A stretch of DNA of 64,000 bases from the human T2T-CHM13v2.0 reference genome, Homo sapiens. Made by a program: the position numbers and the translations under genes. The stretch is taken from assembly GCF_009914755.1 (NCBI RefSeq), contig NC_060933.1. One strand, given 5' to 3'. How positions within the stretch are numbered: position 1 is the first letter of the stretch; each line of letters starts with the position of its first letter. The notes below the pieces were generated by a model. It worked only from the letters and a program-made list of their open reading frames with translations. It did not search any database and was not told the origin of the DNA. This document shows, one piece after another, positions 846 to 32,000 of this stretch.

Positions 846-2566
846 ACAACAATAACAAACAAAACAAAAACACATTACAGACAAGAACTGTTGCTGGCAA
901 AGCTTAAAACCACCAGCCTATATCTGCTTATTTCAAATTCTGGATTCCAGTGTGTGTGTGACTATTTCTCAGTATAACTGACTGTAATGGCAAAGGGAAC
1001 TAATTATGTTCTTTTGGAGTGACAGAGTGCCCTGGTGGTCAGCACAGTCAAGGTGTATTGTGTCAGTGAGTTGTCAGAAGAGAGCATGAGGGCACTGCAT
1101 ATTGTGGTTGAGACTTTTTGTTTAATTGAAACTATTTGATGATAGAGCATTTATGAAATCTCGTTGTTCAGGGAGTGTGGCATAAAGAATGATTGAAAGT
1201 TTACATTTTTGTTCAGGGTGGCAGGCAAGATGGCAATAGGAAAGGCTCCAGTCTGCAGCTCCCAGTGAGATCAGTGCAGAATGTGGGTGATTTCTGCATT
1301 TCCAACTGAGGTACATGGCTCATCTCATTGGGACTGGTTAGACAGGGGGTGCAGCCCACAGAGGGCGAGCCAAAGCAGGGTGGGGCGTCACCTCACCCGG
1401 GAAGCAGAAGGGATTGGGGAACTCCCTCCCCTAGCAGAGGGAAGCCGTGAGGGACTGCCATGAAGAACAGTGCATTCCAGCCCAGATATTACACTTTTCT
1501 CATGGTCTTCACAACCCACAGACCAGGAGATTCCTTCGGGTGCCTACACCACCAGGGCCCTGGGTTTCAAGCACAAAACTGGGCAGCTATTTGAGCAGAC
1601 ACTGAGCTAGCTGCAGGAGTTTTTTTTTCATACACTGGTGGCATCTGGAATGCCAGCAAACAGAACAGTTTCCTCCCTGGGAAAGGGGTCTGAAGCTAGG
1701 AACCAAGTGGTCTAATTCAGTGGATCCCAACCCCATGGAGCCAAGCAGGCTAAGATCCACTGACTTGAAATTCTTACTGCCAGCACAGCAGTCTGAAGTA
1801 GAACTGGGAAGCTCAAACTTAGTAGGGGAAGGGGCGTCTGCCATTACTGAGGCTTGAATAGGCGGTTTTCCCCTCACAGTGAAAACAAAGCTGCCAGGAA
1901 GTTCAAACTGGGCAGAGCCCACTGCAGCTCAGCAAAGGAGTTGTAGCCAGACTGCCTCTCTAGATTCCTCCTCTCTGGGCAGGGTATCTCTGAAAGAAAG
2001 GCAGTGTATCTCTGAAAGAAAGGCAGCAGTCACAGTCAAGGGCTTATAGATAAAACTCCCTTCTCCCTGGGACAGAGCTTCTGGAGGAACGGGTGCCTAC
2101 GGGCACAGCTTCTGCAGACAAACATTCCTTCCTGCTGGCTCTGAAGAGAGCAGCAGATCTCCCAGCACAGAGCTGGAGCTCTCCTAAGGGACAGACTGCC
2201 TCCTCAAGTGGGTCCATGTCCCCCATGCCTCGTGACTGGGAGATACCTCCCAGCAAGGGTCAACAGACACCTCATACAGGAGAGCTCTGGCTGGCATCTG
2301 GCCAATGCCACTCTGGGACGAAGCTTCCAGAGGAAGGTACAGGCAGCAATACTTGGCGTTCTGCAGCCTCTGCTTGTGATACACAGGCAAACAGGGTCTG
2401 GAGTGAACCTCCAGCAAACTCCAGCAGACCTGCCACAGAGGGGCCTGACTCTTAGAAGGAAAACTAACAAAAAGAAAAAAATAGGATCATCATCAACAAA
2501 AAGTACATCCACACCAAAACCCCATCTGAAGGTTACCAACATCAAAGACCAAAGGTAGATAAATCC

Positions 2567-3590
2567 ATGAAGATGAGGAAAAACCAGTGCAAAAAGGCTG
2601 AAAATTCCAAAAACCAGAACATCTCTTCTCCTCCAAAGCATCACAACTCCTTGCCAGAAAGGGAACAAAACTGGACGGAGAATAAATGTGATGAATTGAC
2701 AGAAGTAGGCTTCAGAAGGTGGGTAATAACAAACTCCTCCGAGCTAAAGGAGCATGTTTTAACCCGATGCAAGGAAGCTAAGAACCTTGAAAAAAGGTTA
2801 GAGGAATTGCTAACTAGAATAATCAGTTTAGAGAAGAACATAAATGACCTGATTGAGCTGAAAAACACAGCACAAGAACTTCGTGAAGCATACACAAGTA
2901 TCAATAGCTGAATTGATCAAGTGGCAGAAAGGATATCAGAGACTGAAGATCAACTTAATGAAATAAAGACAAGATTAGAGAAAAAAATAATGAAAAGGAA
3001 CGAAGAAAGCCTTCAAGAAATATGGGACTATGTGAAAAGACCAAACCTACATTTGATTGGTGTTTCTGAAAGTGACAGGGAGAATGGAATCAAGTTGGAA
3101 AACATTCTTCGGGATATTATCCAGGATAACTTCCCCAACCTAGCAAGACAGGCCAACATTCAAATTCAGGAAATAAAGAGAACACCACAAAGATACTCCT
3201 TGAGAAGAACAACCCCAAGACACATAATCGTCAGATTCACCAAGGTTGAAATGAGGAAAAAAATGTTAAGGGCAGCCAGAGAGAAAGTTCTGGTTAACCC
3301 AAAGGGAAACCCATCAGACTAACAGCGGAACTCTCAGCAGAAACCCTATAAGCCAGAAGAGAGTGGGGGCCAATATTCAACATTCTTAAAGAAAAGAATT
3401 TTCAACACAGAATTACATATCCAGCCAAACTAGTCTTCATAGTCAAAGGAGAAAAAAATCTTTTATAGACAAGCAAGTGCTGTGAGATTTTGTTACTGCC
3501 AGACCTGCCTTACAAGAGTTCCTGAAGGAAGCACTAAACATGGAGAGGAGCAACCTGTACCAACCACTGCAAAAACATACCAAATTGTAA
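2567..3590 (+). pseudogene. L1 ORF1p remnant with premature stop (~2909) and frameshifts
   Basis: ORF track: 'MRKNQCKKAENSKNQ...', 'LQEIWDYVKRPNLHLIGV', 'TPRHIIVRF'. Confidence 0.9.
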
Positions 3591-3653
3591 AGCTCATTGA
3601 CACTATGAAGAAACTGCATCAACTAACGGGCAAAATAACCAGCTAACATCATA

Positions 3654-28700: not shown

Positions 28701-29087
28701 GTCTCACCAAATGGCTGCCCACTTTTGTGCTCAACACCCAGGTCCCTGGTGGTGTAGGCACCTGAGGGAATCTCTTGGTCTGTGGGTTGCAACAACCTTG
28801 GGAAAAGCGTAGTATCTGGGCCAGAATGCACCATCCCTCACAACACAGTCCCACATGGCTTCCCTTGGCAGGGGAGGGAGTTCTGCGACCCCTTTTGCTT
28901 CTCAGGTGAGGTGACACCCCATCCTGCTTCAGCTCACCTTCTGTGGGCTGCACCCACTGCCTACCGAGTCCCAGTGAGATGAGCCGGGTACCTCAGTTGG
29001 AAATGCAGAAATCACCCGCCTTCTGCGTTGATTTCCTTGGGAGCTGCAGACCAGAGCTGTTCCTATTTGGTCATCTTGACAGCCACC
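22774..29087 (-). mobile_element. Full-length decayed LINE-1, L1PA7-like (copy B), with ~170-bp deletion in ORF2 near 24300
   Basis: 5' end 'ggtggctgtcaagatgaccaaatagg' on the minus strand; ORF1 (27748 downward) and ORF2 remnants in ORF track; poly-T at 22774-22782. Confidence 0.95.
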
Positions 29088-32000
29088 AAAGGGTAGGTCT
29101 TATTTATTTTTTCTAACTATTTTTTATACCCATTAACCATCACCCAGCCCCAACTCGGTTCCCCCACTCCCTGACTATGCTCCCCAGCCTCTGGTAACAA
29201 TGCTTCTGCTCTATGTTCATGAGTTTAATTGTATTAATTTATATCTTCCACAAATAAGTGAGAACATGCAATTATTGTCTTTCTGTGCCTGGCTTAATTC
29301 ACTTAACATAATGACCATCCATCCATGTTGTTGTAGATGACAGGATCTCATTATTTTTTATGGCTGAATAGTACTCCATTATGTATATGTACCATCACTT
29401 TCTTTATTTATTCATCTGTTGATGGATACTTAGATTGCTTCCAAATATTGGCTATTGTGAATAGTGCTGGAATAAATATGGGAGTTAAGCTATCTCTTTA
29501 ATATATGGACGTTCTTTCTTTTAGGTATATACCCGGAGGTAGGACTGCTGGATCATATGGTAGCTCTAGTTTTAGTTTTTTTTGGGGAGCCTCTGAACTG
29601 TTCCCCATAGTGTTTGTACTAATTTATATTCCCACTAGTATTGTAGGAGGGTTCTCTTTTTTCCACATCCTCTTCCCCATTTGTTATTGCCTGTCTTTCG
29701 GATAAAAGCCATTTTAACTGGGGTGTTTTGATATCTCATTTTATTATGATTTGTGTTTCTCTGATGATCAATGATGTTGAGCCCCTTTTCTTATGCCCGT
29801 TTGCCATTTGTAAGTCTTTTTTTGAGAAATGTTGATTCAAATCTTTTGCCCATTTAAAAATAAGATTATTTACAGCATTTCACTTTTATGAAAAATAGTG
29901 ATGGAATATTCAGATTATTAGATTTTTTTTCCTCTGGAATTGTTTAAGCCCTTTATATATTGTTTATTAATCCCTTGCCAGATGGGTAGTTTGCAAATAT
30001 TTTCTCCCATTTGATGGATTGTCTCTTCACATCTTTGTTGTTTCCTTTGCTGTGCAGAAGCTCTTTAACTTAATGTGATTCCATTGGTCTATTTTTGCTT
30101 TGTTTCCCTGTGCTTGTGGGTATTATTCAAGAAATGTTTGCCCAAACCAATGTCTTTGAAAATTTCCCTAATGTTTTCTTGTAGTAGTCTCATAGTTTGA
30201 GGTCTTAGTTTTAAGTCTTTAATCCATATTTTCATTTGTGTTTGTGTGTGGCACTAGATAAGGGTCTAGTTTCATTCATTTGCATATGGATATCCAGTTT
30301 TCCCAGCACCATTTATTGGAGAGATTCTCTTTTCTCCAGTGTATGTTCTTGGCACTTTTGTTTAAAAATGCATTTAATGTGTAGGTAAATGGATTTGTTT
30401 CTGTGTTCTCTATTATGTTCTATCGGTCTATGTGTCTGTTTTTATGGCAGCATTATGCTGTTTCGGTTACTATAGCTCTGTATTATAATTTAAAATTGGG
30501 TAATGTGATTTTTCCAATTTTGGTCTTTTTGCTTAGGATAGCTTTGGCTGTGCTAGATCCTTTTTTTGTTACATACAAATTTTAGGATTGCTTTTTCAGT
30601 TCCTGTGAAGAATGTAATTGGTATTTCATAGGGAGTGCATTGAATCCGTAGATTGCTTTGGGTAATATGGACATTTTAATAATATTGTTCTTTCCAATCC
30701 ATCAACATGGAATATCTTTCCATTTTTTGTGTGTCTTCTTCAATTCCTTATATCAGTGTTTAAAAGTTTTTTTTATAGAGATGTTATACTTAAAGTGAAA
30801 GTAAAATTAATTCCTAGGTATTTAATTTTATTTGTGGCTATTGTAAATGAGATTACTTTTTTGATTTCTCTTTCAGATGGTTTGCTATAGGCATATAGAT
30901 ACGCTACCAATTTTTGCATGTTGATTTTGTATTCTGCAACTTTACTGAATTTATCAGTTCTAATAGTTTCTTGGAGGAATCTTTAGGTTTTTCCAATTAT
31001 AAGATTATATAATCTGCAAACAGGGATAATTTGACATTTTTCATTCCAGTTTGGATGCCTTTTATTTCTTTCTCTTGTCTGATTGCTCTTGCTAGGACTT
31101 CCAGCACTGTGTTGAATAACAGTGGTGAAAGTGGGCATCCTTATTTTGTTCCAGATTTTAGAGGAAAGCTTTTCAGTTTTTCTTCATTCAGTGTGATACT
31201 AGCTGTGGGTTTCTTATATATGGCTTTTATATGTTGAAGTGTATTTCTTCTATGCCCAGTTTTTTGAGAGATTTTATCATGAAGGGATATTAAGTTTTAT
31301 CAAATGCCTTTTCAGCATCAATTGAAATGGTCATATGTTTTTTATCATTCATTCTGTTGATAGGATGTATCACATTGATTGATTTGCATATGTTGAACAA
31401 TCCTTGCATCCTTGGGGTAAATCCTACTTGGTCATGATGAATGATCTTTTTTAATGTATTGTTGAATTAGGTTTGTTAGCATTTTGTTGATGATTTTTGA
31501 ATCAATATTTATCAGAGATATGTGCCTGTAATTTCCTTTTTTGATGTTTGTCTGGTTTTTGTATCAGGGTAATACTCTCCTTGCAGAATGAGTTTGGAAG
31601 TGTTCCCTCCTCCTCCATTTCTTGGAACAGTTTGAGTAGGATTAGTTCTTCTTAAATATTTGGTAGAATTCAGGACTGAAGCCGTCAGGTGCCAGGCTTT
31701 TCTTTCCTGGGAAACTTTTTATTACGGCTTTGATATTGTTACTTGTTATTGGTCTAGTCAGGTTTTGGATTTCTTCATTATTCAATCTTGGCAGGGTTGC
31801 GTGTGTTCAGGAATTTATCCATTTATTCTGGATTTTCTCGTTTATTTGCATATAGTTGTTCATAGTAGCCACTAATAATCCTTTGAATTTCTGCTGTAAC
31901 AGTTTTAATGTCTACTTTTTCATCTCTGATTTTATTTATTTGTGTCTTCTTTCTTTTTTTCATAGTCTGGCTAATGTTTTGTCAATTTTGATTAACTTCT

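What the first reader, a model, noticed from the sequence alone, without database searches (positions are those of the whole stretch)
1195..29101. Inversion of at least 15 kb between two inverted full-length L1PA7-like elements (swapped TSDs, split host L1MA)
Seen in sequence: neither L1 has a clean TSD of its own, but the flanks cross-match. (i) Copy A's 3' flank aagacctagtcttt (7742-7755) matches copy B's 5' flank, which reads aagacctacccttt on the minus strand (29088-29101), 12/14 identical. (ii) Copy A's 5' flank gaaagttt[acattttt]gttcag (1195-1216, after TT, an L1 endonuclease-like site) matches copy B's 3' flank gaaagtttgcccag (reverse complement of 22760-22773). (iii) The minus-strand L1MA at 29088+ stops at '...gaaaaaataaataagaccta', and the next L1MA 3'UTR sequence ('...tttgctagcagaactgggtgactatagt...') resumes at 7742 on the plus strand. 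Established: non-allelic homologous recombination between inverted repeats inverts the intervening DNA and exchanges the repeats' inner ends. Inference: one L1PA7 inserted into the L1MA 3'UTR, another inserted ~15 kb away, and a crossover inside them flipped 7742-22773, so both present L1s are chimeras. The inversion could be fixed, lineage-specific or polymorphic.
Basis: partly seen in the sequence, partly recalled or inferred. Interest (0 to 1): 0.85.

Follow-up and report, generated by a model that had tools for sequence, protein, structure and literature searches.

The report
Old inversion between two inverted L1s
Two dead full-length L1 retrotransposons lying head to head recombined long ago and flipped the roughly 15 kb of DNA between them, which is a real but ordinary and already well-described kind of rearrangement in primate genomes.

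Summary
L1 copy A (1217-7741, +) and copy B (22774-29087, -) are full-length, collinear and 87.4% identical. Neither has a target-site duplication (TSD) of its own, but the flanks cross-match. Each cross pair shares an anchored 8-nt exact match (chance about 9e-4 each). The own pairs share 3 and 4 nt.

The strongest evidence is new. Intact genomic copies of the older host L1 align to 30396..29094 on the minus strand and to 7742..7970 on the plus strand. The two pieces share 8 nt of reference coordinates, exactly the TSD (3 of 7 references abut directly). Both TSD copies also carry a locus-specific base.

The best explanation is recombination between two independently inserted, inverted L1s, which flipped 7742-22773 plus parts of both L1s. 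This is the "L1-RMI" class of Lee et al. 2008.

A and B belong to the same subfamily (123 of 150 diagnostic columns), so the crossover cannot be mapped from this genome. They are no more alike than unrelated family members and their longest shared perfect run is 53 nt, so the event is probably ancient. Timing and polymorphism need other genomes, which these tools do not hold. Interest is low.

The parts
1195..1216 (+). 5' flank of L1 copy A carrying the TSD2 copy. The core gaaagttt is 1195-1202, preceded by tt. 1203-1216 is either 14 extra nt or the rest of the TSD with an 8-nt indel.
   Evidence: 8-nt exact anchored match to B's 3' flank (P about 9e-4). L1 homology starts at 1217, so 1203-1216 is not L1.
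1217..7741 (+). L1 copy A: full-length, dead. Inferred chimera of the 5' part of the element inserted at site 2 and the 3' part of the element inserted into the older L1.
   Evidence: collinear with B, 87.4%; longest open frame 289 aa; ORF1 RBD-like and trimerisation domains, RT; family 5' terminus GGTGGC....
7706..7727 (+). 22 nt of non-L1 sequence between A's A-rich L1 end and a 16-nt poly(A) at 7728-7743. Candidate short 3' transduction, absent from B.
   Evidence: 3' ends of A, B and panel copies side by side; no other copy in the genome at 2 mismatches or fewer.
7742..7756 (+). TSD1 copy next to A's poly(A): aagacctagtctttg.
7742..7970 (+). 3' tip of the older host L1 (L1M/L1PB-like), now on the plus strand.
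   Evidence: 39 other genomic copies at 81-85% identity.
7742..22773 (.). The 15,032-nt segment between the two L1s, inverted relative to the ancestral order. The true inverted segment also includes the L1 parts inside the unmapped crossover points, so it is 15.0 to about 27.9 kb.
   Evidence: Inference.
22760..22773 (-). TSD2 copy next to B's poly(A). It reads gaaagtttgcccag on the minus strand; the core is 22766-22773.
22774..29087 (-). L1 copy B: full-length, dead, with a plain A9 tail and a 143-nt internal deletion at 24324/24325. Inferred reciprocal chimera.
29088..29101 (-). TSD1 copy next to B's 5' end. It reads aagacctacccttt on the minus strand.
29094..32423 (-). Body of the older host L1, on the minus strand, ending at the TSD1 copy.
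   Evidence: L1 homology to 32423; references align 30396..29094; the subject piece was cut at 30400.

Best explanation
Two L1 elements of the same L1PA subfamily inserted independently, in opposite orientation, about 15 kb apart. One went into the 3' end of an older minus-strand L1 and made TSD1 (aagacctagtctttg). The other went into unique DNA at tt|gaaagttt and made TSD2. A homology-driven exchange between the two inverted elements then flipped everything between the crossover points. This left two chimeric full-length L1s with swapped TSDs and put the 3' tip of the older L1 on the opposite strand, 21 kb from its body.

Shown: the swap, the split host element, and the independence of the two insertions. 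Inferred: the crossover itself and its position, and an early date, when the copies were still nearly identical.
For: Split host element:
- Intact genomic copies of the host L1 family align to both pieces with abutting coordinates and an 8-nt overlap equal to the TSD core. L002, L003 and L005 do so directly. That is 3 of 7 references. Two more (L004, L006) match both pieces with an unaligned gap, and two (L007, L008) match the 3' piece only.
- In the junction alignment, 5 of 5 reference sequences read through aagacctaNtatttg. Both TSD copies share a c where all 5 have a. This ties the two copies to one original site.

TSD swap:
- Each cross pair has an 8-nt exact anchored match (P about 9e-4 each). 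The own pairs have 3 and 4 nt.

The two L1s:
- A and B are collinear end to end, so the exchange was at homologous positions.
- The 3' tails differ. A has 22 non-L1 nt plus A16; B has A9. So they were two separate insertions.
- 585 of 785 A/B differences are private to one copy. The pair was therefore at least about 97% identical at insertion, which is adequate for homologous recombination.

Precedent:
- The mechanism and the TSD-swap diagnostic are established. Lee et al. 2008 (PMC2603318; abstract and sections 6, 7, 8, 19 read) describe 21 L1-mediated cases between human and chimpanzee, more than half of them longer than 10 kb.
Against: - No outgroup or second human genome could be examined, so the ancestral orientation is inferred from one genome only.
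- Site 2 lies in unique DNA. It rests on the 8-nt core alone, and its extension needs an 8-nt indel.
- Chimerism is not seen directly. A and B both carry the same group's state at 123 of 150 diagnostic columns, and the exceptions are scattered.
- The panel was chosen with A as query only, because the B-based panel could not be fetched.
- Present identity is 87.4% and the longest perfect run is 53 nt. That is poor substrate for recombination today, so the account needs an early event.
Confidence: 0.9

Rival explanations
1. The same end product arose by a mechanism other than a classical crossover: replication template switching between the inverted L1s, or double-strand breaks in both L1s repaired by single-strand annealing or end joining at equivalent positions.
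For: Lee et al. 2008 (abstract) propose secondary structure or fragile sites at inverted retrotransposons as routes to inversion, and report accompanying deletions in 12 of 49 cases. B carries a 143-nt deletion with a small adjacent duplication, which 28 of 29 panel copies lack. This could be a repair scar.
Against: Both elements are otherwise collinear over their full length, which homology-guided exchange explains most simply. The deletion may be unrelated later decay. Nothing here tells the sub-mechanisms apart.
Confidence: 0.06
2. There was no inversion. The two L1s inserted where they now lie, without proper TSDs. The flank matches are chance, and the 7742 tip and the 29094 element are two different old L1 copies.
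For: TSD2 is only 8 nt exact, and old L1 fragments are common in the window.
Against: Two anchored 8-nt matches in the cross pairs only have a joint chance near 1e-6. The two old-L1 pieces abut exactly in reference coordinates. Both TSD1 copies also share a base that none of the 5 references has. Twin priming of the old L1 does not fit either, because it would place the inverted piece directly 5' of the direct piece and needs no L1PA at the junction.
Confidence: 0.02
3. Assembly artefact: the segment between two inverted 6-kb repeats was placed in the wrong orientation in this assembly.
For: Inverted repeats are a classic cause of misorientation. No reads could be inspected.
Against: The repeats are only 87.4% identical, with no perfect run above 53 nt. 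Reads can therefore be placed unambiguously. A mis-join would also not create chimeric but collinear L1s with swapped TSDs unless it fell inside both repeats.
Confidence: 0.02

Closest known systems
Retrotransposon recombination-mediated inversion, L1-RMI (Lee, Han, Meyer, Kim, Batzer 2008, PLoS One; PMC2603318)
   Same: Two inverted L1s span the breakpoints, the elements become chimeric, and the TSDs no longer match their own element. The size is in the same range: more than half of their L1 cases exceed 10 kb, and the human-specific mean is 14.3 kb.
   Different: Their cases were found by human-chimpanzee comparison and involve L1PA elements said to be younger than about 20 My. This one is inferred from a single genome. 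It involves older copies, each about 5-7% diverged, and has no dated lineage. Their Table S1 could not be opened, so I cannot say this locus is absent from it.
Polymorphic human inversions flanked by inverted L1 pairs (Porubsky et al., bioRxiv 10.1101/2021.12.20.472354; passages read)
   Same: Balanced inversion with inverted L1s on both flanks. In 6 of their 22 L1 pairs both elements are full-length.
   Different: 21 of their 22 L1 pairs are more than 90% identical (median 97.2%), and the median inversion is 5.6 kb. Here identity is 87.4% and the segment is at least 15 kb, which argues against a young or recurrent event.
Twin-priming inversions inside single L1 insertions
   Same: An L1 whose 5' and 3' parts lie on opposite strands, as the old host L1 does here.
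   Different: Twin priming gives adjacent pieces within one TSD pair, with the inverted piece 5' of the direct piece. Here the pieces are 21 kb apart, in the other order, and each abuts a different L1PA. The description of twin priming is recalled, not taken from a call.

Membership tests
L1 recombination-mediated inversion (L1-RMI) | Two L1 elements in opposite orientation span the two breakpoints | tested here: met
   1217-7741 (+) and 22774-29087 (-) are collinear and 87.4% identical over 6258 aligned positions. L1 ORF1 and RT domains.
L1 recombination-mediated inversion (L1-RMI) | Each element's own TSDs do not match; TSDs match across the two elements | tested here: met
   own pairs share 3 and 4 nt. 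Cross pairs share 8 nt exact each (P about 9e-4 each). TSD1 is 12/14, flush with B's 5' end.
L1 recombination-mediated inversion (L1-RMI) | Intervening DNA is reversed relative to the ancestral state (internal proxy: a host element split across the inversion) | tested here: met
   3 of 7 reference copies align to both pieces with an 8-nt overlap. Both TSD copies share a locus-specific base.
L1 recombination-mediated inversion (L1-RMI) | Ancestral orientation seen in an outgroup or another haplotype | not testable with these tools
   No primate or second human assembly is held.
L1 recombination-mediated inversion (L1-RMI) | Both elements are chimeras with a definable switch point | tested here: inconclusive
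   A and B carry the same group's state at 123 of 150 diagnostic columns, the 12 discordant columns are scattered, and no switch is visible. The different 3' tails fit chimerism but do not prove it.
Full-length LINE-1 element | Family 5' terminus, ORF1 and ORF2 remnants, 3' end with poly(A) | tested here: met
   both start GGTGGC..., like panel copies L017 and L029 (L024 starts GGTGGA). Both end ...CTTAAAGTATAAT plus A-rich tail; 3 of 10 ORF fragments hit L1 ORF1 or RT families; frames are broken, so both copies are dead.
Twin-priming L1 inversion | Inverted and direct pieces are adjacent within one TSD pair | tested here: not met
   the pieces are 21 kb apart, in the wrong order, and each is bounded by a different L1PA.

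The most novel reading that the evidence does not exclude
The inversion is young: specific to great apes or humans, or still segregating in people. It would then have happened between 6-kb repeats that were already only about 90% identical. That would be an unusually diverged substrate for a homology-driven inversion and a usable lineage marker.
Probability: 0.06. Interest if true: 0.45.

Novelty: new member of a known kind. Interest (0 to 1): 0.2.

Why it matters
It shows that an old, balanced rearrangement can be read from a single genome, using swapped TSDs together with a host repeat split across strands. This instance lies in an intron of a predicted lncRNA (hub annotation). No annotated exon or RefSeq functional element lies inside the inverted segment, so no functional consequence is expected. 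If outgroups show that it arose after the ape/Old World monkey split, it would be a clean, homoplasy-poor phylogenetic marker. It would matter more only if it proved young or polymorphic.

Tried and rejected
1. Mapping the crossover from subfamily-diagnostic sites. I aligned a panel of 29 genomic L1PA copies to A and B. Linkage among sites split the panel into two groups, but A and B both sit in the same group along their whole length. No switch point was found.

2. A local identity peak as a trace of recent exchange or gene conversion. There is none: 300-nt windows range from 79.7% to 92.3%.

3. A repeat-continuity test for site 2. The flank 700-1216 matches other loci only within its first ~160 nt, and 22453-22773 matches only itself. 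No test was possible.

4. A second panel chosen with B as query. The panel is therefore A-biased.

5. The source of A's 22-nt extra 3' sequence. The pattern matches only itself in the genome at 2 mismatches or fewer.

6. Literature check for this locus.
- 'LOC105376107': 0 papers.
- Aguado et al. 2014 (PMC3961182; passages) list one chr9 inversion, at hg18 125.78 Mb.
- Porubsky et al. 2023 (PMC10150506): 0 hits for chr9, chromosome 9 or 9q21 in the main text.
- Searches turned up no description of this event.

8. Twin priming and inverted duplication of a single L1. Both are rejected: twin priming on geometry, inverted duplication on the different 3' tails.
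Full report
**What is there**

The window holds two L1 elements in opposite orientation. Copy A is 1217-7741 on the plus strand. 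Copy B is 22774-29087 on the minus strand.
- They align end to end. BLAST gives 1217-6015 against 29087-24325 at 85.7%, and 6191-7704 against 24300-22770 at 87.5%.
- A global alignment gives 5472 matches and 786 mismatches, or 87.4%.
- Both start with the family's 5' terminus (GGTGGC...) and end at the family's 3' terminus followed by an A-rich tail.
- Open frames are broken: the longest is 289 aa in A and 146 aa in B.
- Of 10 frame fragments scanned against Pfam, 3 matched L1 families and 7 matched nothing. In A these were the ORF1 RBD-like and trimerisation domains and the reverse transcriptase; in B the reverse transcriptase.

They are dead, full-length L1PA-type elements. I could not verify the name 'L1PA7', because no repeat library is available.

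**The flanks**

In L1-sense orientation, the 30 nt upstream and 20 nt downstream of each element were compared in all four combinations.
- Own pairs: the longest anchored exact match is 3 nt for A and 4 nt for B.
- Cross pairs: 8 nt each. aagaccta links A's 3' flank to B's 5' flank, and gaaagttt links B's 3' flank to A's 5' flank.
- Among 200,000 random flank pairs from the same window, 8 nt or more occurs with frequency 9e-4.
- TSD1 extends to 12/14 (13/15 with the ambiguous g) and ends flush against B's first base.
- TSD2 is firm only for its 8-nt core. Since L1 homology begins at 1217, 1203-1216 may instead be extra nucleotides at the 5' junction.
That this resembles an L1 endonuclease site is recalled knowledge.

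**The split host element**

- The plus-strand tip 7742-7990 finds 39 other genomic copies at 81-85% identity. Seven were fetched with flanks (L002-L008).
- Each was aligned to the two window pieces, which were kept separate.
- L002, L003 and L005 match the minus-strand piece from 30396, 29394 and 30361 respectively down to 29094, and the plus-strand piece from 7742 onward. The two matches overlap by 8 nt of reference coordinates counted from 7742. In L002 and L003 the local alignment runs 11 nt further into A's poly(A).
- L004 and L006 match both pieces but leave 118 and 26 reference nt unaligned at the A-rich junction. L007 and L008 match only the 3' piece.
- In a multiple alignment of the junction, L002, L003, L005, L006 and the window's other copy at 38385-38490 all read ...aataagacctaNtatttg... 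without a break. B's flank follows them up to aagaccta, and A's flank follows them from aagaccta on.
- At TSD position 11, both window copies have c where all 5 references have a. The two copies therefore descend from one specific site.

The old L1 thus continues from the minus strand at 29094 to the plus strand at 7742, with the duplicated target site at both ends. Only an inversion explains this simply.

**Independent insertions, not a duplicated element**

- A's 3' end carries 22 nt of non-L1 sequence (7706-7727) and a 16-nt poly(A). B has a plain A9 tail.
- Against a panel of 29 other genomic L1PA copies, A and B differ at 785 informative sites. Of these, 268 are private to A, 317 are private to B, 116 have both states common in the panel, and 84 are other.
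- The pair was therefore at least about 97% identical when inserted.
- A-B identity (87.4%) is just below the pairwise range of 45 pairs of unrelated same-group copies (mean 88.9%, range 87.6-90.6%). There has been no homogenisation since.

**Mechanism**

Swapped TSDs require breakpoints inside both elements. Full collinearity requires that the breakpoints fall at equivalent positions. That points to a homology-guided exchange between the inverted elements.

This is the retrotransposon recombination-mediated inversion of Lee et al. 2008 (PMC2603318). They use the same TSD logic to call the ancestral state and describe 21 L1 cases between human and chimpanzee.

The inverted segment is 15,032 nt plus the L1 parts inside the crossover points, so 15.0 to about 27.9 kb.

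**What could not be shown**

I tried to map the crossover.
- Linked variable sites divide the panel into two groups that differ at 150 columns.
- A and B both carry the same group's state at 123 of them. The discordant columns are 8 with A odd and 4 with B odd. They are scattered and are as frequent as in other members of that group.
- No switch point is visible. The panel is A-biased, because the B-based loci could not be fetched.

Site 2 lies in unique DNA, so it has no repeat-continuity test.

There is no outgroup or second human haplotype in these tools.

**Timing (inference)**

- Sliding identity shows no peak (79.7-92.3% in 300-nt windows).
- The longest perfect run between A and B is now 53 nt.
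- Porubsky et al. (bioRxiv 2021, passages) find that 21 of 22 L1 pairs flanking polymorphic human inversions are more than 90% identical, with a median of 97.2%.

I therefore think the exchange happened soon after the second insertion and is fixed. From recalled substitution rates, private divergence of about 5-7% per copy suggests insertions roughly 25-30 My ago.

**Literature on this locus**

I found no description of this event (details in Tried and rejected). This covers main texts only. Inversion catalogues keep their loci in supplements that I could not open.

**Verdict**

It is a further instance of a well-described class, with no annotated exon or RefSeq functional element inside it. 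Interest is low unless it proves young or polymorphic.

Noticed in passing
window 7706-7743: Copy A's 3' end has 22 nt of non-L1 sequence between the A-rich L1 terminus and a second, 16-nt poly(A). This is the layout expected of a short 3' transduction. The 22-mer occurs nowhere else in the genome at 2 mismatches or fewer.
   Followed up: partly
window 24290-24330 (B), against 6016-6158 (A): B lacks 143 nt that A and 28 of 29 panel copies have. Next to the gap, B shows a small local duplication. It could be a scar of the exchange or unrelated decay.
   Followed up: partly
loci L017-L045: The 29 genomic L1PA copies fall into two groups that differ at 150 alignment columns. At least two copies (L023, L032) carry a patchwork of both states.
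   Followed up: no
window 11408-12959 (-), 19006-19545 (+), 21989-22452 (-): Three further L1 3'-end fragments, 78-81% identical to A, lie inside the inverted segment. Their present strands are the reverse of the ancestral ones.
   Followed up: no
window 38429-38649 (+): Another 3' end of the same old L1 family as the split host element, 76% identical to 7742-7960. It was used as an extra reference.
   Followed up: partly
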